Below are positions 1-4,205 of a stretch of DNA of 4,205 nucleotides, one piece after another. This stretch comes from a virus (taxonomy: Duplodnaviria > Heunggongvirae > Uroviricota > Caudoviricetes). Made by a program: the position numbers and the translations under genes. Where the stretch lies: positions 1-4,205 of the IMG/VR virus record IMGVR_UViG_2667527898_000012; one strand, written 5' to 3'. Numbering within the stretch: position 1 is the stretch's first letter; every line of letters begins with the position of its first letter. The notes under the pieces were generated by a model. The model saw only the letters and a list, made by a program, of their open reading frames with translations, ran no database searches and had not been told where the DNA came from.

Positions 1-2712
1 GGCAATATAAAGGCGTCCGTCCTGCATCTTCTGCAGCTTCACCGCCCACATGCTGTTCAGGTCATTACGGGTGTCCGTCTGCACACGCTGGATTTGCTGT
101 ATGGTGGCGCTCTGGTCCTCCAGCGTTTTACTGACCGTCTGTGTGATTTCATTGCGGGTTTCGGTGATGGTGGTCTGCATTTCCGCCATCTCGTCCTTCA
201 GCTGACTGTTGTCAATCTCTGCCCACAGCGCCTCTGCCAGATGCGTTTTTCCTATCTTTTCCCGGAAAAGTTCCAGATAGCCCGCAGCATCATTGCTCGC
301 CCGTCCACTGGCTTCCACAAAAGCAGATTTACCCACCAGGTTGACGCTGCGCACATAAAACCAGAAATCCTTTCCGGGCTTAATGTGCGGACCGGAGACA
401 CTCCACTGACTGCCGGTCCCCAGATAACGGGCAGAGGTTTCCACCTGTGCGGCGTCTGCAATTTTTGCCTCCGAAAACCAGAACTCAAACTGCACCGTCG
501 GGTCATAAATGGTCAGTTTCGGGACTGCCGTTATCTGAAAATACCCCGGCGTCAGTTCAACACCGGCAGGCGCTGCCGGTGCGTTAATCCGGAACGTGGT
601 GGTGGCGGGTTCGCCCTGCTGGCCATAGCTGTTAATCGCCCTGACCGTCAGGGTGTATTCCCCGAGAGGCAGGCCACTGAAACGGTGCTCCGTATCGGCA
701 GTGATGGCGGTGGTCAGCAGGCGGCTGTTCTCACCGCTTCCACTGGTCAGGCGCAGACTGAAGCGCACGCCCTTCACCACCCTCGGCGTGTCCCATTTCG
801 CCAGCGCCAGATACTGGCTGTCAGCTGCGCTCACCTCCACCGTCAGGTGCTGCACTGCCGGTGGGATAACGCTGTTCAGGGTGCCTGACTGCGGCTCAAA
901 GCGGGCTCCGTTATCCACAATGGCTTCTTTTTCCGGTACGTGCTGCACTGCCGTGATGGCAAAGGTGCCGTCCGTGTTTTCCCGGATGGAGACACAGCGG
1001 AACAGGCGACGGCGCAGTGACGGCAGGGAGAGTCCCCACACCCCGTATGTCTCCACACCATCAGGCAGGGTACTGACCTGTATCCGGTCCGGCGCGGGGT
1101 GTGCGGTGATGTCCACACTCACCGGCTTACCGCTGCCGTTAATCAGGTTCACCGTCGATGTACCTGTCCCCGGAAGTGTCACTTCACGGTCCAGCGTCAG
1201 GGTGCGGGTGGCAGCATCAATGGACAGGACACGTCCGCCGGTCAGGGTTCCGGCATAGTCGTTATCACAGATTTCAATGATGTCACCGGGTGTGTGCCGC
1301 AGCCCCTGTGACCCGAGTGTGAAATCCACCGTCTGCGTTTCCAGCAGTTCTGTCTTTATCACCCACAGCCCGGCACGGTGGGCCTGACCGCGACTGGTGC
1401 AGCCGAACGCATCCATCTTCAGCAGGTTGCGTCCGTAGCGCAGTATGGCTTCCGGGTCTTCCACCAGTTCCGTGGAGGTCTGCCAGCCGTTCTGCGGGTC
1501 GGTGTAATTCACCTCCACCGCCGTGTGCCGGTCCTTCAGGGCACTGAAGCTGTAGCGGAACCCCACGCCGTTATCATCCACCACCACATCGCTGTTCGTG
1601 TACGGCCACACCACATCCGACTGGCGGTCCTGAACGAACGTCAGCGTCTGGCCGTTCCATACCGGCATACAGCGCATCGCCGAGCAGAAATCACTGAGAA
1701 CGTCCCACGCCTTACGCTGTTGTGCCAGGTACGCATTAAAGGTCATCCGCGGCTCTGTGCCCCCGAAACCATCCGGGACCGTCTGGTCGCAGTACTGCCC
1801 GATGGCATACAGCGCCCACTTGTCCACATCCGCCGCCCCCAGACGTTTTCCCATGCCGTAGCGCGGGTGAGTCAGCATGTCCCACAGACACCAGGCCGGA
1901 TTGTTACTGTATGCCGGTTTCAGACTGCCGTCCCAGATACCACTGTACGTGCGTTTTTCCGGGTCATAGTTTGACGGCACCTGGATGATGCGACCGCGGA
2001 TATGGTAGTTCACCGTCATCTGCTGGCCGCCGAACTGCTCCGCATCCACCTGCAGCCCCACAATGGCCGTGTTCGGGTAGCACTGTTTCACATCGATAAT
2101 TTCGGTGTATGACGACCAGAGCGTCTTATTCTGCAGCTGGTCCGTGGTGCTGTCCGCCGTCTCCCTGACCATCCGGATGTTAAAAGGACGGGGAGGCAGA
2201 TTATCCAGAATCACCGACGCCAGAAACTGCGAGGTGGTCTTGCCGTTAATGGTGACATCCTTTTCCGTCATCCATTTACCACCACGCTCAAGCTGAATCA
2301 GCAGGCGGACAGACGTCGGGTTACGGTCACCCTTTGACGTGGTCTGCACCAGTGACTGCACCCCGAAGGTCACCCGCAGGCGGTCAATGTTCGCGGACGT
2401 AATGGTGCGCGTCACCGGTTTTGCCTTCGTCACTTCCACGCCCAGTACAGTTTCAGCTCCGGAGGACTCAAAGCCTTCCGGTGGTGTCTGCTCCTGCTCC
2501 CCGGCGCGCCAGACCGCCGTCACACCGTGTATCACGGGATTACCGTCCGTGTCCGTCAGCGGGGTTTTGTTCACCAGGATACTCTGCAGTCCCTTCACCG
2601 GGCCTTCTGTCGGTCCCTCACCAACCGCATCAGTCACGCTCATCATCTGCGTGGATTTGAGATTATCCTTCGCCTCACGAGGCGTGTGTGCTTTCCCTCC
2701 ACTTTTTCCCAT
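1..2712 (-). CDS. J: Host specificity protein J / central tail fibre (tip attachment protein), N-terminal 904 codons; 3' end lies beyond the window start
   Basis: Hand translation of the reverse complement from ATG at 2712-2710 gives MGKSGGKAHTPREAKDNLKSTQMMSVTDAVGEGPTEGPVKGLQSILVNKTPLTDTDGN... and runs to position 1 with no stop (checked in consecutive 60-nt blocks; frame = codons ending at multiples of 3). The N-terminus and many internal blocks (e.g. NKTLWSSYTEIIDVKQCYPNTA, WCLWDMLTHPRYGMGKRLGAADVDKWALY, RCVSIRENTDGTFAITAVQHVPEKEAIVDNGA, TPGYFQITA...YDPTVQFEFWFSE) match what I recall of phage lambda J. SD-like GGGAAGG sits 4 nt upstream of the ATG. Absent from the ORF track only because no stop occurs in-window. 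Confidence 0.95.
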   Translation of the reverse strand, partial: MGKSGGKAHTPREAKDNLKSTQMMSVTDAVGEGPTEGPVKGLQSILVNKTPLTDTDGNPVIHGVTAVWRAGEQEQTPPEGFESSGAETVLGVEVTKAKPVTRTITSANIDRLRVTFGVQSLVQTTSKGDRNPTSVRLLIQLERGGKWMTEKDVTINGKTTSQFLASVILDNLPPRPFNIRMVRETADSTTDQLQNKTLWSSYTEIIDVKQCYPNTAIVGLQVDAEQFGGQQMTVNYHIRGRIIQVPSNYDPEKRTYSGIWDGSLKPAYSNNPAWCLWDMLTHPRYGMGKRLGAADVDKWALYAIGQYCDQTVPDGFGGTEPRMTFNAYLAQQRKAWDVLSDFCSAMRCMPVWNGQTLTFVQDRQSDVVWPYTNSDVVVDDNGVGFRYSFSALKDRHTAVEVNYTDPQNGWQTSTELVEDPEAILRYGRNLLKMDAFGCTSRGQAHRAGLWVIKTELLETQTVDFTLGSQGLRHTPGDIIEICDNDYAGTLTGGRVLSIDAATRTLTLDREVTLPGTGTSTVNLINGSGKPVSVDITAHPAPDRIQVSTLPDGVETYGVWGLSLPSLRRRLFRCVSIRENTDGTFAITAVQHVPEKEAIVDNGARFEPQSGTLNSVIPPAVQHLTVEVSAADSQYLALAKWDTPRVVKGVRFSLRLTSGSGENSRLLTTAITADTEHRFSGLPLGEYTLTVRAINSYGQQGEPATTTFRINAPAAPAGVELTPGYFQITAVPKLTIYDPTVQFEFWFSEAKIADAAQVETSARYLGTGSQWSVSGPHIKPGKDFWFYVRSVNLVGKSAFVEASGRASNDAAGYLELFREKIGKTHLAEALWAEIDNSQLKDEMAEMQTTITETRNEITQTVSKTLEDQSATIQQIQRVQTDTRNDLNSMWAVKLQKMQDGRLYIA

Positions 2713-2716
2713 CCAC

Positions 2717-2723
2717 CCTTCCC
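2717..2723 (-). promoter_or_regulatory. Shine-Dalgarno-like element GGGAAGG for J
   Basis: Minus-strand sequence CAGGGGAAGGGTGG precedes the J ATG; the purine-rich core ends 4 nt before the start codon (short but plausible spacing). Confidence 0.4.
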
Positions 2724-2815
2724 CTGAAAAAATTATCCGCCACTTGCCATTCCGTACAGAAGTCGGATATCCTTCGCCCGAAAAGCATGAAACACATTTC
2801 TGCCATGCTAAACAG

Positions 2816-2850
2816 AAACCCCGGTATCAGCAGATACCGGGGTTTTCTTT
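2816..2850. terminator. Perfect 13-bp hairpin AAACCCCGGTATC-AGCA-GATACCGGGGTTT flanked by A-tract and U-tract; candidate bidirectional intrinsic terminator
   Basis: Arms at 2816-2828 and 2833-2845 are exact reverse complements around a 4-nt loop. Downstream is TTTTCTTTC on the plus strand and TTTCTGTTT on the minus strand. Located about 100 nt upstream of the J start codon. Confidence 0.5.
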
Positions 2851-2917
2851 CATGCCAACCGATAATCCTGTTGGTTAAAACCGGTAATGGCATAAAAATT
2901 CTGAATATCTTCACATT

Positions 2918-2945
2918 TTCACACACTGACTGTGGCGCTTATAAT
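2918..2945 (+). promoter_or_regulatory. Candidate sigma70 promoter: -35 TTCACA (2918-2923), 16-bp spacer, -10 TATAAT (2940-2945); A/T-rich stretch upstream (2889-2910)
   Basis: Read directly: -35 matches consensus at 5 of 6 positions, -10 is a perfect TATAAT, spacing is 16 bp. It faces away from J and towards I, i.e. antisense to the tail operon. Predicted transcription start near 2951-2953. Confidence 0.5.
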
Positions 2946-2951
2946 TTCGCT

Positions 2952-3050
2952 GCGTTAGTGTTTTTTTGCCCGAGTAACAAAAACAACTCCTTAACATTAA
3001 TCTTCATTTGTCTGTCCCCGCAGCTCCGCGATCACTGCGGGATTTTTTTA
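2952..3050 (+). ncRNA. Putative prophage-encoded small RNA (about 100 nt) between promoter and intrinsic terminator; possible Hfq-type sRNA or anti-sRNA
   Basis: Promoter at 2918-2945 and terminator at 3017-3058 bracket about 100 nt with no ATG and no ribosome-binding site. A GTG at 2958 opens a frame but lacks an SD and the frame runs on through the terminator. The segment includes a U7 run (2961-2967), a CA-rich stretch AACAAAAACAAC (2976-2987, four consecutive A-R-N triplets), and a 3' GC hairpin plus U-tract. Coordinates of the 5' and 3' ends are estimates. Confidence 0.45.
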
Positions 3051-3058
3051 TTCTTTTT
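3017..3058 (+). terminator. Rho-independent terminator on the plus strand: stem CCCGCAG (3017-3023) / CTGCGGG (3035-3041), 11-nt loop, then ATTTTTTTATTCTTTTT
   Basis: Perfect 7-bp GC-rich inverted repeat immediately followed by a long T-tract on the plus strand only; on the minus strand the stem is preceded by A's and not followed by U's. The U-tract overlaps the stop codon of I (3057-3059). Confidence 0.6.
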
Positions 3059-3737
3059 ACCCCTGCCGCCCGATAACCACGACCTTTCCGCACCCGCCTT
3101 CATCACGGGTACTGATGTCCTGGGATATACGGCGGGAGCCAACCAGCATTTCCCCGTAAGGCACCGGCATCGGGTTACCCTGGGCAATCATGTTGTCCAG
3201 TGACGAAAAATACGTGTTCTGTCTGCCGTTATCCGTTGCGCGGTAATCCGGTGTTTTTGCCTTCGGGGCCAGCATCTGGGCCACACCACCCAGAATCATG
3301 CTGGCCCCCAGTGAAAACAGCATCGTGGTGGCAGAAAAACCGCCGGCACTCAGGGCTGTACCCCATAACGCCATCGAGGCACCGGCAGTGAGGAAAGAGC
3401 CCACGATGGCTGCCGCCCCCAGCACAATCTGAAGTCCGCCCTTTCCGGCCCCGGCCAGTCGCGGCACAATATGGATAACCGTTCCCTCACCCAGTGGTTC
3501 GTGAAGGCGGGCATACACCGCCTCCGGTGCCGTATCCTCACCGGCAATGCGTATCTGGTACCAGCCTTCGTTCATCTGACGGCGAAAGCCCGGCACCTGC
3601 AGCGACAGGGCGCGGATGGCTTCCGCCGCCGTGTTCACATACAGGCTGAAGCGGCGGCCAAATCGTTGTAAATCCCCGTGAAGGCAGATGCGTGCCAGTG
3701 GCGGTGACGCCAGACAGAATGCGTTCGTCGTTGCCAT
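3057..3737 (-). CDS. I: Tail assembly protein I (tail tip assembly), 226 aa
   Basis: ORF-track protein MATTNAFCLASPPLARICLHGDLQRFGRRF...GASMILGGVAQMLAPKAKTPDYRATDNGRQNTYFSSLDNMIAQGN...VVVIGRQG resembles lambda gpI as I recall it, including the Gly/Ala-rich hydrophobic central segment. Stop TAA at 3059-3057 confirmed by hand. Lies between K and J in the lambda gene order. Start at 3737 is inside the K reading frame. Confidence 0.93.
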   Translation of the reverse strand: MATTNAFCLASPPLARICLHGDLQRFGRRFSLYVNTAAEAIRALSLQVPGFRRQMNEGWYQIRIAGEDTAPEAVYARLHEPLGEGTVIHIVPRLAGAGKGGLQIVLGAAAIVGSFLTAGASMALWGTALSAGGFSATTMLFSLGASMILGGVAQMLAPKAKTPDYRATDNGRQNTYFSSLDNMIAQGNPMPVPYGEMLVGSRRISQDISTRDEGGCGKVVVIGRQG

Positions 3738-4205
3738 TTTTCGGAATACCTCTCCCGTTTACTCAGTTGTTCAGGCAGATGGTGAAGCAGTTCACCGTTG
3801 CCGCAGTAAATGGCGGCATGATTAGCCACCGATGCGCCGAAGCAGCACAGCAGGATATCGCCCGGCAGTGCAGAGGACAGGGGCACCCGGTAAAAGCCCG
3901 TTTCCTCCATATTGTCCAGGTAAAGGTTCTGACCGTTGCACCACCAGTCATCCTCACGGTGAAAATCCGGCATATCAATGCCTGCCAGATGGTATGCATC
4001 CCGGAACAGCGTGTAACAGTCCGTCACCCCGTGCGCAAAGCGCCGTCCCGTCAGGTGCGGAACGCAGCGGAATTTGTGAATGTCACCCCGGCTGACCAGC
4101 CACCAGGGCAGTGCGCTTTTTATCTGCAGCCGCCGGTCGGCCTCGCTCAGCCAGGGCAGTCCACCGGGATGACTGTGGACCAGTGCCACAATCTCCCCCT
4201 GCATC
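3635..4205 (-). CDS. K: Tail assembly protein K (MPN/JAMM metalloprotease-like plus NlpC/P60 cysteine peptidase-like domains); 5' end truncated by the window edge
   Basis: In-window protein contains the JAMM signature H-x-H-x7-S-x2-D (HSHPGGLPWLSEAD) followed by an NlpC/P60-like Cys...His...His arrangement (GVTDCYTLF ... ANHAAIY ... LLHHLP), the two-domain layout known for lambda gpK. The frame is open to the last base of the window, so the true start is upstream of 4205. It overlaps the I start by 103 nt in a different frame, which matches the lambda K/I overlap as I recall it. Confidence 0.9.
   Translation of the reverse strand, partial: MQGEIVALVHSHPGGLPWLSEADRRLQIKSALPWWLVSRGDIHKFRCVPHLTGRRFAHGVTDCYTLFRDAYHLAGIDMPDFHREDDWWCNGQNLYLDNMEETGFYRVPLSSALPGDILLCCFGASVANHAAIYCGNGELLHHLPEQLSKRERYSEKWQRRTHSVWRHRHWHASAFTGIYNDLAAASACM

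What the first reader, a model, noticed from the sequence alone, without database searches (positions are those of the whole stretch)
2889..3058. Self-contained small-RNA module, antisense to the tail operon, in the I-J spacer
A near-consensus sigma70 promoter (TTCACA-16-TATAAT) and a clean intrinsic terminator bracket about 100 nt of non-coding sequence on the strand opposite the K-I-J genes. A sigma70 promoter of this quality would be expected to fire in a lysogen, when the late tail operon is silent. The transcript carries AACAAAAACAAC (four A-R-N triplets), the kind of C/A-rich element that the G/U-rich R1 region of the core sRNA GcvB is known to pair with. Hfq-bound prophage sRNAs that act as mRNA-mimic anti-sRNAs (AgvB against GcvB) have been reported from EHEC prophages; I am not sure from memory that their location is the same I-J junction. 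If this is such an element it is a regulatory cargo gene hidden inside a structural-gene block, and no ORF-based annotation would find it.
Basis: partly seen in the sequence, partly recalled or inferred. Interest (0 to 1): 0.8.

Follow-up and report, generated by a model that had tools for sequence, protein, structure and literature searches.

The report
Known prophage small RNA PasB
The promoter-to-terminator module between tail genes I and J is real, but it is a copy of the already described Hfq-dependent prophage small RNA PasB (EcOnc22-24 family), and the evidence argues against it being an AgvB-like decoy for GcvB.

Summary
The + strand, antisense to tail genes K-I-J, carries TTCACA-16-TATAAT (2918-2945) and an intrinsic terminator (stem 3017-3041, U7 3043-3049).

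The element is already known. It matches PasB of EPEC E2348/69 at 81 of 83 positions, and the published PasB Northern probe is an exact reverse complement of window 3023-3045. PasB was found by RIL-seq and Northern blot and is Hfq-dependent. The same I-J spacer position in E. coli O157 Sakai prophages Sp15, Sp14 and Sp11 holds EcOnc22/23/24 (Hfq-CRAC, about 85 nt, destabilised without Hfq). About 30% of complete E. coli genomes carry the module.

The AgvB/GcvB reading fails on five counts:
- AgvB lies downstream of Q, not in the I-J spacer.
- AgvB shares no sequence with this element.
- The CA-rich stretch is not conserved among alleles.
- Predicted GcvB pairing is no better than for shuffled sequences.
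- EPEC RIL-seq lists no GcvB-PasB chimera.

Published PasB partners pair with window-equivalent 2983-3016, and far better than background does. The window allele has two substitutions inside that seed.

Verdict: ordinary and already described, with the physiological role still open.

The parts
2891..2917 (+). Conserved A/T-rich block upstream of the -35 (cATAAAAATTCTGAATATCTTCACATT). It includes a second TTCACA at 2910-2915 that is kept in all alleles that retain the promoter region. It may be an UP-like or regulatory element.
   Evidence: Alignment of 37 unique modules; role inferred only.
2918..2923 (+). -35 hexamer TTCACA
   Evidence: Promoter scan, 11 of 12 match with a 16-nt spacer; the exact promoter is kept in 65 of 81 related loci.
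2940..2945 (+). -10 hexamer TATAAT
   Evidence: Other allele types have AATAAT, GATAAA or TATCAT here.
2952..3049 (+). Predicted primary transcript, about 98 nt, if transcription starts 7 nt after the -10
   Evidence: Inferred from promoter geometry; fold.
2967..3049 (+). Equivalent of the published 83-nt PasB RNA (E2348/69, NC_011601 1466343..1466261)
   Evidence: 81 of 83 identical. The PasB Northern probe AATCCCGCAGTGATCGCGGAGCT is an exact reverse complement of 3023-3045. The most 5' RIL-seq read start is 1466344.
2961..2967 (+). U7 run near the 5' end. It pairs with the A-rich stretch in the 98-nt form and lies at or before the published mature 5' end.
   Evidence: A U-run is present in all allele types.
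2976..2987 (+). AACAAAAACAAC: four A-R-N triplets, a candidate Hfq distal-face site.
   Evidence: Seen directly in the sequence. A-rich or ARN character is kept but the CA content is not. GcvB pairing is not above shuffles.
2983..3016 (+). Single-stranded seed region. Seed 1 is 2987-3002 (CUCCUUAACAUUAAUC) and seed 2 is 3001-3016 (UCUUCAUUUGUCUGUC). Positions 2993 (A, against C in PasB) and 2999 (A, against G in PasB) are allele-specific.
   Evidence: Pairing profile over 11 RIL-seq partners, duplexes, comparison with 316 background windows, p = 3.6e-8. Unpaired in the fold.
3017..3049 (+). Intrinsic terminator: stem CCCGCAG/CTGCGGG, 11-nt loop, A, then U7. The U-tail is also the expected Hfq proximal-face site.
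   Evidence: The 3' end of PasB maps to the end of the U-run.
3057..3737 (-). Tail assembly gene I. Its stop codon lies 8 nt from the sRNA 3' end.
   Evidence: ORF list; annotated homologues.
1..2712 (-). 5' part of host-specificity gene J (start codon at 2712..2710). It runs off the window.
   Evidence: Sequence; annotation of homologues.
2713..2888 (.). Left half of the long-form spacer. It is not part of the sRNA. It contains a 10-bp GC-rich hairpin (2819-2842) flanked by an A-rich run and TTTTCTTT (2843-2850), which reads as a terminator on either strand.
   Evidence: 95-99% identical in 1,451 E. coli records. The tail-strand fold is -61.1 kcal/mol, z = -2.9. Absent from short-form spacers.

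Best explanation
The module is a copy (allelic variant) of the prophage small RNA PasB, which belongs to the same I-J spacer family as EcOnc22/23/24 of E. coli O157.

It is an extra piece of DNA (a 'moron') between tail genes I and J, on the opposite strand, with its own sigma-70 promoter and intrinsic terminator. It can therefore be made in the lysogen while the late operon is silent.

The RNA is about 83-98 nt. It would bind Hfq through its 3' U-tail and probably through the A-R-N-rich stretch. It acts in trans by imperfect base pairing through the single-stranded stretch between the A-rich region and the terminator (window 2983-3016). Its partners are many host, virulence-island and prophage RNAs, often at ribosome-binding sites.

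Shown by others for the orthologues: expression, size, Hfq dependence and in vivo partners. Shown here: identity, synteny, anatomy, allele structure and the location of the pairing region. Inferred: that this particular copy is expressed, that pairing represses translation, and which genes this allele targets. Its two seed substitutions are predicted to weaken several PasB pairings.
For: Identity:
- 81 of 83 nt identical to PasB, and the PasB Northern probe matches window 3023-3045 exactly.
- Same position and strand between the tail assembly gene and gpJ in E2348/69.
- EcOnc22/23/24 lie in the I-J spacers of Sakai Sp15, Sp14 and Sp11 on the strand opposite the tail genes. Their CLASH read sequence is found there exactly and aligns with the window module.

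Expression and Hfq:
- EcOnc22 gives a Northern band of about 85 nt and is destabilised in the hfq deletion.
- PasB is 83 nt, with log2 fold change -6.8 and -2.4 in the hfq mutant, 37 interactions, and is almost always the second RNA in chimeras.

Anatomy: promoter and terminator and folds.

Conservation: promoter in 65 of 81 loci and terminator in 79 of 81; the module is in 1,611 of 5,426 complete E. coli genomes.

Seed:
- The mean pairing z-score over 11 RIL-seq partners dips at positions 32-45 of the 99-nt predicted transcript, which is PasB nt 17-30.
- napF 5'UTR forms a 16-bp duplex of -23.6 kcal/mol. caiF, the fabR/yijD junction, map, rplX and ler use the same core. hflX, E2348C_2648 and the RNAs upstream of the holin (PP2) or in the matching spacer (PP5) use the adjacent stretch.
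- Targets average -16.9 kcal/mol against -11.4 for 316 background windows, Mann-Whitney p = 3.6e-8.
- An EHEC CLASH chimera uses the homologous block of the Sakai allele.
- Zhu et al. 2026 independently propose a seed just upstream of the terminator.
Against: - There are no expression data for this copy or its host.
- The published 5' end (window 2967) is 15 nt downstream of the start predicted from the TATAAT. Either the RNA is processed, or the coverage-based end is imprecise, or the promoter assignment is slightly off.
- The terminator stem never varies, so there is no covariation support.
- The original authors listed no common target motif for PasB (no PasB entry in the motif table).
- RIL-seq chimeras do not prove regulation, and no target has been validated. 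The 2026 preprint states that the function of the Pas sRNAs is not elucidated.
- The window allele carries C27A and G33A in seed 1. Predicted pairing to napF falls to -15.8 kcal/mol and to caiF to -11.0 kcal/mol, so its targets may differ.
- In the Sakai-type and L073-type alleles the correctly spaced -35 is poor.
Confidence: 0.85

Rival explanations
1. AgvB-like anti-sRNA: the CA-rich stretch mimics GcvB targets, pairs with GcvB R1 and relieves GcvB repression.
For: AACAAAAACAAC (2976-2987) is C/A-rich and forms four A-R-N triplets. It is single-stranded in the 83-nt form. A duplex with R1 can be drawn at -18.6 kcal/mol.
Against: - 17% of dinucleotide shuffles pair with R1 as well. AgvB itself gives -23.7 kcal/mol, with 5% of shuffles as good.
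- There is no CACAACA consensus in the window.
- The stretch is present in only 24 of 81 loci and is replaced by AUAAGAAUAAUU, GAAAAAUAAC or AAAAACAAAAC in the other alleles.
- There is no sequence similarity to AgvB, AsxR or EcOnc03 and no Rfam hit.
- AgvB lies elsewhere in the prophage.
- EPEC RIL-seq with the identical stretch shows no GcvB-PasB chimera, although both RNAs are abundant on Hfq.
Confidence: 0.04
2. The element acts mainly as a cis-antisense regulator of the phage's own late operon. It pairs perfectly with the I-J intercistronic part of the late mRNA, triggers RNase III or RNase E cleavage, and so tunes J and downstream gene expression or silences leaky tail transcripts in the lysogen.
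For: The RNA is fully complementary to the tail-strand transcript over 83-98 nt by construction. Tail-strand fragments of the I 3' region are bound by RNase E in EHEC (ECs2945 3'UTR chimera). The position is fixed in all related phages.
Against: - The complementary region is more than 250 nt from the J ribosome-binding site.
- Almost all in vivo chimeras are with unlinked RNAs.
- Lambda manages with a 60-nt spacer and no such module.
- The variants carrying sodC keep the RNA body but lose the promoter.
- No second site in the window's tail mRNA pairs notably with the seed (best -13.3 kcal/mol).
Confidence: 0.12
3. The conserved sequence encodes a small protein on the tail strand (ORF 3007..2939, MKINVKELFLLLGQKNTNAAKL). 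The + strand signals would be incidental, or would form a type I toxin-antitoxin-like pair.
For: A 22-codon ORF with ATG is present. The Sakai allele has a longer ORF with a GGAGA Shine-Dalgarno sequence, and the 6-nt indel between the two alleles keeps the frame.
Against: - 46 of 81 related loci have CGT in place of CAT, so the tail strand reads ACG rather than ATG. Another allele deletes 4 nt across the start.
- ORF length and C-terminus are not conserved.
- The peptide is not hydrophobic like type I toxins.
- The + strand RNA is experimentally detected and bound by Hfq.
Confidence: 0.02
4. PasB serves mainly as partner, sponge or target of an RNA made upstream of the holin gene of a co-resident lambdoid prophage (and in the matching spacer of another). 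Its main role would then be RNA crosstalk between prophages.
For: By far the largest RIL-seq partner is the + strand RNA at 743482-743611, upstream of the PP2 class II holin: 774 chimeras in 3 libraries. The PP5 homologue gives 54. Both contain UGACAGACAGUGACGGAU, which pairs with seed 2 at -15.5 kcal/mol. Seed 2 is identical in the window allele.
Against: - The pairing energy is modest; 2.8% of background windows do as well.
- The direction and consequence of the interaction are unknown.
- The partner RNA is not characterised.
- The window does not include a lysis region, so presence of the partner in this host is unknown.
Confidence: 0.15

Closest known systems
PasB (pathogenicity-associated sRNA B) of EPEC O127:H6 E2348/69, prophage PP6 (Pearl Mizrahi et al. 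2021, PMC8550237; Zhu, Shabalina & Storz 2026 preprint)
   Same: 81 of 83 nt identical. Same promoter region, terminator and position between tail assembly gene I and gpJ, on the opposite strand. Identical CA/ARN stretch and identical seed 2.
   Different: Two substitutions in seed 1 (window 2993 A for C, 2999 A for G). The position-27 change is the one the 2026 preprint describes between PasB and PasB-2. The window has the long 344-nt spacer, E2348/69 the short 240-nt one.
EcOnc22/23/24 of EHEC O157:H7 Sakai, prophages Sp15, Sp14 and Sp11 (Tree et al. 2014, PMC4104026; Waters et al. 2017, PMC5286369)
   Same: Same I-J spacer position and strand, same terminator stem, the same invariant upstream TTCACA block (the properly spaced -35 differs), UUAAUCUUC and ACUCC blocks, similar size (about 85 nt), Hfq-bound and Hfq-dependent.
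   Different: About 75% identity over the module. A 6-nt deletion removes part of the CA-rich stretch. Seed 1 and seed 2 differ (CCAUAACGUU..., CAUCGUUCUCU). The -10 is AATAAT with a poor -35. The PasB row of Table S6 shown carries no EHEC-homologue note, and 'EcOnc' does not occur in the main text of the 2026 preprint. So the link between PasB and EcOnc22-24 does not appear in the parts of those two papers that I read.
AgvB / AsxR / EcOnc03 anti-sRNA family (Tree et al. 2014; cited as Rfam RF02702 and RF02703)
   Same: Prophage-encoded, Hfq-bound, with A-R-N triplets and an intrinsic terminator. Alleles share a scaffold but differ in the pairing region.
   Different: No sequence similarity. 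That family is 51-60 nt and sits downstream of Q/PR' near stx or lysis genes, not in the tail operon. It acts on GcvB or FnrS, and no such partner is seen for PasB.
Phage 'morons' such as sodC (cargo with its own promoter and terminator inserted between conserved late genes; Juhala et al. 2000 as cited)
   Same: Extra DNA relative to lambda (344 nt against 60 nt). It has its own promoter and terminator and is expressed from the prophage. The same spacer holds a sodC gene on the same strand in some relatives.
   Different: The cargo is a non-coding regulatory RNA, not a protein.

Membership tests
PasB / EcOnc22-24 (I-J spacer prophage sRNA) | Sequence homology to the 83-nt PasB RNA | tested here: met
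   81 of 83 identical. The Northern probe is an exact reverse complement of 3023-3045. Alignment A2.
PasB / EcOnc22-24 (I-J spacer prophage sRNA) | Position between tail assembly gene I and host-specificity gene J, on the opposite strand | tested here: met
   Window ORFs; E2348/69; Sakai Sp15, Sp11 and Sp14.
PasB / EcOnc22-24 (I-J spacer prophage sRNA) | Intrinsic terminator with a U-tail at the 3' end, and its own promoter | tested here: met
PasB / EcOnc22-24 (I-J spacer prophage sRNA) | Expressed in the lysogen, bound and stabilised by Hfq | not testable with these tools
   Shown for orthologues only: Hfq-CRAC, Northern blot and hfq deletion; RIL-seq, Northern blot and DESeq2 in the hfq mutant.
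PasB / EcOnc22-24 (I-J spacer prophage sRNA) | Base-pairing seed in the single-stranded stretch upstream of the terminator | tested here: inconclusive
   Clear for the E2348/69 allele. The window allele keeps seed 2 but has two substitutions in seed 1, so its partners are unknown.
AgvB/AsxR anti-sRNA family | Conserved 3' domain of about 42 nt (GUAUCUCAUGC..UUGCCCGAACCCAYUCGGGC) | tested here: not met
   Only chance 7-9-mers by blastn-short. No Rfam hit at E <= 1.
AgvB/AsxR anti-sRNA family | Location at the moron site downstream of Q/PR' | tested here: not met
   AgvB1 maps between Q (ECs_1958) and the lysis genes of Sp10. The window element lies between I and J.
AgvB/AsxR anti-sRNA family | GcvB R1 target consensus CACAACA and pairing with GcvB | tested here: not met
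   No CACAACA in 2952-3049. The duplex is not better than shuffles. No GcvB-PasB chimera in RIL-seq.
Type I toxin-antitoxin or small-protein gene with antisense RNA | Conserved small ORF with a start codon on the strand opposite the sRNA | tested here: not met
   The ORF exists in the window, but the start codon is lost in 46 of 81 loci and in a 4-nt deletion allele.
Phage moron | Extra DNA between conserved genes, with its own promoter and terminator | tested here: met
   The lambda I-J spacer is 60 nt against 344 nt here. Promoter and terminator. sodC occupies the same site in relatives.

The most novel reading that the evidence does not exclude
The I-J spacer RNAs form an allelic series. 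A fixed scaffold (promoter block, U-run, A-R-N stretch, ACUCC, UUAAUCUUC, terminator) frames short variable seed blocks, so each prophage carries a differently targeted regulator. The window allele would be a retargeted version of PasB.

In addition, the dominant in vivo partner is an RNA made upstream of the holin gene of a co-resident prophage. A tail-region sRNA of one prophage could therefore tune, or be titrated by, the lysis region of another.
Probability: 0.2. Interest if true: 0.6.

Novelty: already known. Interest (0 to 1): 0.28.

Why it matters
The result shows that a reader working from raw sequence alone can recover a real regulatory RNA gene hidden inside a structural operon, one that genome annotation still leaves blank. 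The gene itself has been described twice (EHEC 2014, EPEC 2021), and its distribution was surveyed in a 2026 preprint.

Three things remain worth following:
- The physiological role of PasB is still unknown.
- PasB and EcOnc22-24 appear to be one family. I did not see that link in the parts of the two PasB papers I read.
- The pairing region can be placed at window 2983-3016, and natural alleles, including this one, differ exactly there. This predicts allele-specific targets among virulence regulators (ler, perB, map, bfp) and metabolic genes (napF, caiF).

Tried and rejected
- **Rfam scan** of the whole window at E <= 1: no hit, so neither PasB nor AgvB is recognised there.
- **AgvB, AsxR and EcOnc03 against the window** by blastn-short: chance words only.
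- **GcvB R1 duplex prediction** for four allele types, with dinucleotide shuffles: not significant.
- **Small ORF on the tail strand** (3007..2939): rejected because the start codon is lost in most alleles.
- **Covariation in the terminator:** uninformative, because all 7 pairs are invariant in 18 diverse alleles. RNAalifold does not support a conserved 5' hairpin.
- **Unrestricted duplexfold of PasB against the RNA upstream of the PP2 holin:** gave an implausibly long structure, so it was replaced by windowed scans.
- **Search with protein I in one-genome-per-species contigs:** only 4 loci, all close E. coli-type sequences, so no distant homologues were gained.
- **Multi-word search of tab-separated supplements:** returned nothing, so I read the tables by part instead.
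- **Second pairing site for the seed in the window's own tail mRNA** (for example the J ribosome-binding site): nothing above background.
- **Mapping of EcOnc22 coordinates:** the paper's coordinates are in an older Sakai version. The offset of +135 to +137 was fixed with AgvB1 and with the CLASH read sequence.

Full report
**What is in the window.** The window is the K-I-J part of a lambda-like tail operon, read on the - strand. K is 4204..3635, I is 3737..3057, and J starts at 2712 and runs off the left end. Close matches in phage and E. coli records are annotated as tail assembly protein and host-specificity protein J. I and J are separated by 344 nt (2713-3056), whereas lambda has only 60 nt there.

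**Check of the observation.** The + strand carries three features.
- A promoter: TTCACA (2918-2923), 16 nt, TATAAT (2940-2945). This is an 11 of 12 match. The region gave three promoter-like sites against 0.7 +/- 0.9 expected from shuffles.
- An intrinsic terminator: CCCGCAG (3017-3023), an 11-nt loop, CTGCGGG (3035-3041), then A and U7 (3043-3049).
- The stretch AACAAAAACAAC at 2976-2987.

The description is therefore accurate. Among 81 related loci fetched through protein I, 65 keep the exact promoter and 79 keep the terminator. The module occurs in 1,611 of 5,426 complete E. coli genomes, usually once and up to six times, and almost always without annotation.

**What it is.** Rfam has no match, but the literature does.
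- *EHEC.* Tree et al. 2014 list EcOnc22 (Sp15), EcOnc23 (Sp14) and EcOnc24 (Sp11) as homologous Hfq-CRAC peaks on the + strand. The Northern band is about 85 nt and is destabilised in the hfq deletion.
- *Coordinate mapping.* Their coordinates are in an older genome version. The RNase E-CLASH supplement of Waters et al. gives the EcOnc22/23/24 read sequence GCCTGAAAAATAACTCCATAACGTTAATCTTCA. That sequence lies in the I-J spacers of Sp15, Sp11 and Sp14 in NC_002695.2, on the strand opposite the tail genes. The offset is +135 to +137, consistent with about +136 from AgvB1.
- *Homology to the window.* The Sakai spacer aligns with the window module from the upstream TTCACA block to the terminator.
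- *EPEC.* Pearl Mizrahi et al. 2021 describe PasB: NC_011601 minus strand 1466343..1466261, 83 nt, prophage PP6. Its Northern probe AATCCCGCAGTGATCGCGGAGCT is the exact reverse complement of window 3023-3045. The E2348/69 locus lies between the tail assembly gene and gpJ. The 83-nt RNA is 81 of 83 identical to window 2967-3049.
- *PasB properties.* PasB is strongly Hfq-dependent and has 37 RIL-seq interactions. It is higher in static overnight LB than in DMEM.
- *Distribution.* A 2026 preprint (Zhu, Shabalina, Storz) surveys it: 1,158 hits, embedded in a phage structural operon, common in extraintestinal strains. The preprint says the function of the Pas sRNAs is not elucidated.

The element is therefore already known. 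The PasB row of Table S6 shown carries no EHEC-homologue note, and 'EcOnc' does not occur in the main text of the preprint. So the link between PasB and EcOnc22-24 does not appear in the parts of those two papers that I read.

**The 5' end.** A start 7 nt after the TATAAT would be near 2952 and give a 98-nt RNA. The published PasB 5' end corresponds to 2967, and the most 5' RIL-seq read start to 2966. The 15-nt difference is unresolved. It could reflect processing in the U-run, imprecise coverage across U7, or a different start. In the 98-nt form the U-run pairs with the CA-rich stretch. In the 83-nt form that stretch is open.

**The AgvB/GcvB idea.**
- AgvB (sequence) maps between Q and the lysis genes of Sp10. 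It is 57-60 nt and shares nothing with the window beyond chance words.
- The alleles fall into at least four types, named here for convenience: the window type, the L070 type (the commonest), the Sakai type and the L073 type. In these the CA-rich stretch reads AACAAAAACAAC, AUAAGAAUAAUU, GAAAAAUAAC or AAAAACAAAAC. What is kept is A-richness and A-R-N triplets, which suggests an Hfq distal-face site, not a GcvB target motif.
- Predicted pairing with GcvB R1 is -18.6 kcal/mol, and 17% of dinucleotide shuffles are as good. For AgvB it is -23.7 kcal/mol, with 5% of shuffles as good.
- The most direct evidence comes from the EPEC RIL-seq tables. For a PasB with the identical stretch, GcvB appears only with SroC among sRNA-sRNA pairs, and PasB appears only with two prophage intergenic RNAs, in both growth conditions.

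**How it most likely works.** I took eleven published PasB partners and scored pairing along the RNA.
- *Position.* The mean z-score against shuffled targets is near zero over the 5' part and the CA-rich stretch. It drops to about -1.9 over positions 32-45 of the 99-nt predicted transcript, which is PasB nt 17-30.
- *Seed 1.* Windowed duplexes define seed 1 as CUCCUUCACAUUGAUC. It forms a 16-bp duplex with the napF 5'UTR (-23.6 kcal/mol) and also pairs with caiF, the fabR/yijD junction, map, rplX and ler.
- *Seed 2.* Seed 2 is UCUUCAUUUGUCUGUC. It pairs with hflX, E2348C_2648 and the PP2 and PP5 intergenic RNAs.
- *Background.* Targets average -16.9 kcal/mol against -11.4 for 316 background windows, p = 3.6e-8.
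- *Other support.* An EHEC CLASH chimera uses the homologous block of the Sakai allele. The region is unpaired in the fold, and the preprint also places the seed there.
- *Mechanism.* Seed 1 contains CUCCUU, an anti-Shine-Dalgarno-like motif. Occlusion of ribosome-binding sites is therefore the likely mode for 5'UTR targets. This step is inferred.
- *The window allele.* It differs from PasB only at 2993 (A for C) and 2999 (A for G), both in seed 1. Predicted pairing to napF, caiF, fabR, rplX and others weakens, while seed-2 pairings are unchanged. The same blocks are the most variable parts across allele types.

**Rivals.**
- *A purely cis-antisense role on the late mRNA.* This cannot be excluded, but nothing I examined favours it over the trans role. 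The complementary region is far from the J start, the in vivo chimeras are with unlinked RNAs, and no second site in the window's tail mRNA stands out.
- *A small ORF on the tail strand (3007..2939).* It loses its start codon in 46 of 81 loci.
- *A role centred on a co-resident prophage's RNA.* The largest single partner is a + strand RNA upstream of the PP2 holin, with 774 chimeras, plus a PP5 homologue. This hints at RNA crosstalk between prophages, which is the most novel reading left open.

**Verdict.** The feature is real and correctly described as a small-RNA gene, but it is already known as PasB (EcOnc22-24 family). The proposed GcvB-decoy mechanism is not supported. Interest is low to moderate. 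It rests on the open physiological role and on the seed polymorphism of this allele.

Noticed in passing
window 2713-2888 (hairpin 2819-2842, T-run 2843-2850): The left half of the spacer is a separate segment. It is absent from short-form spacers, yet 95-99% identical in 1,451 E. coli records and never annotated. It holds a 10-bp GC-rich hairpin between an A-rich run and TTTTCTTT, so it reads as a terminator on both strands, plus a second hairpin (GCATG...CATGC, 2785-2808). The tail-strand fold is -61.1 kcal/mol (z = -2.9). A weak + strand promoter-like site (2744-2773) could give a second RNA of about 70 nt.
   Followed up: partly
L089 1950-1990 (E2348/69) and L002 2745-2775 (Sakai Sp15): Short-form spacers have a different hairpin (CAGGCACC...GGTGCCTG). 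On the tail strand it is followed by TTGTTTTTGTG or TTGTTTTCTGG. So both spacer forms place a tail-sense terminator-like site between the sRNA gene and J.
   Followed up: no
L077 2184-3030 (also L072, L044, L088): Some relatives have an 851-nt I-J spacer carrying a Cu/Zn superoxide dismutase (SodC-like) gene, recognised by eye from its translation and not searched against any database. It lies on the sRNA strand and has its own terminator. It is followed by a PasB-like RNA body that has lost the promoter block. The I-J spacer is thus a recurrent insertion site for antisense cargo.
   Followed up: partly
window 2910-2915 and 2918-2923: There are two TTCACA copies 8 nt apart. The upstream one lies 24 nt from the -10 and is kept in all alleles that retain the promoter region. 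The properly spaced one is present only in the window-type and L070-type alleles. The Sakai-type and L073-type alleles have a poor -35 at the right spacing although EcOnc22 is expressed. The invariant block may serve something other than a -35.
   Followed up: partly
window 2939-3007, - strand: A 22-codon ORF (MKINVKELFLLLGQKNTNAAKL) lies antisense to the sRNA body. It is longer, with a GGAGA Shine-Dalgarno sequence, in the Sakai allele, but the start codon is lost in most alleles.
   Followed up: yes
L090 2983-3170 (E2348/69 743482-743670) and L092: The main RIL-seq partner of PasB is a + strand RNA lying divergent to PasA, between the SASA esterase and (in PP2) the class II holin. In PP5 an IS4-like transposase follows instead. 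The RNA ends at an intrinsic terminator (GCCGTCAGTGGGTGACACTGGCGGC plus a T-run). It looks like an uncharacterised sRNA or leader RNA and is conserved in PP2 and PP5.
   Followed up: partly
L085, L087, L088: Short contigs filed under Streptomyces flavalbus, Parendozoicomonas haliclonae and a Clostridiales MAG encode this E. coli-type tail protein I at 91-98% identity, together with the same spacer. They are most likely contamination or mis-binning in those assemblies.
   Followed up: no
NC_002695.2 against the coordinates in Tree et al. 2014 and Waters et al. 2017: Published EcOnc coordinates are offset by +135 to +137 nt from the current Sakai RefSeq between 1.94 and 2.90 Mb. Taken at face value they would point to the wrong part of the spacer.
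   Followed up: yes
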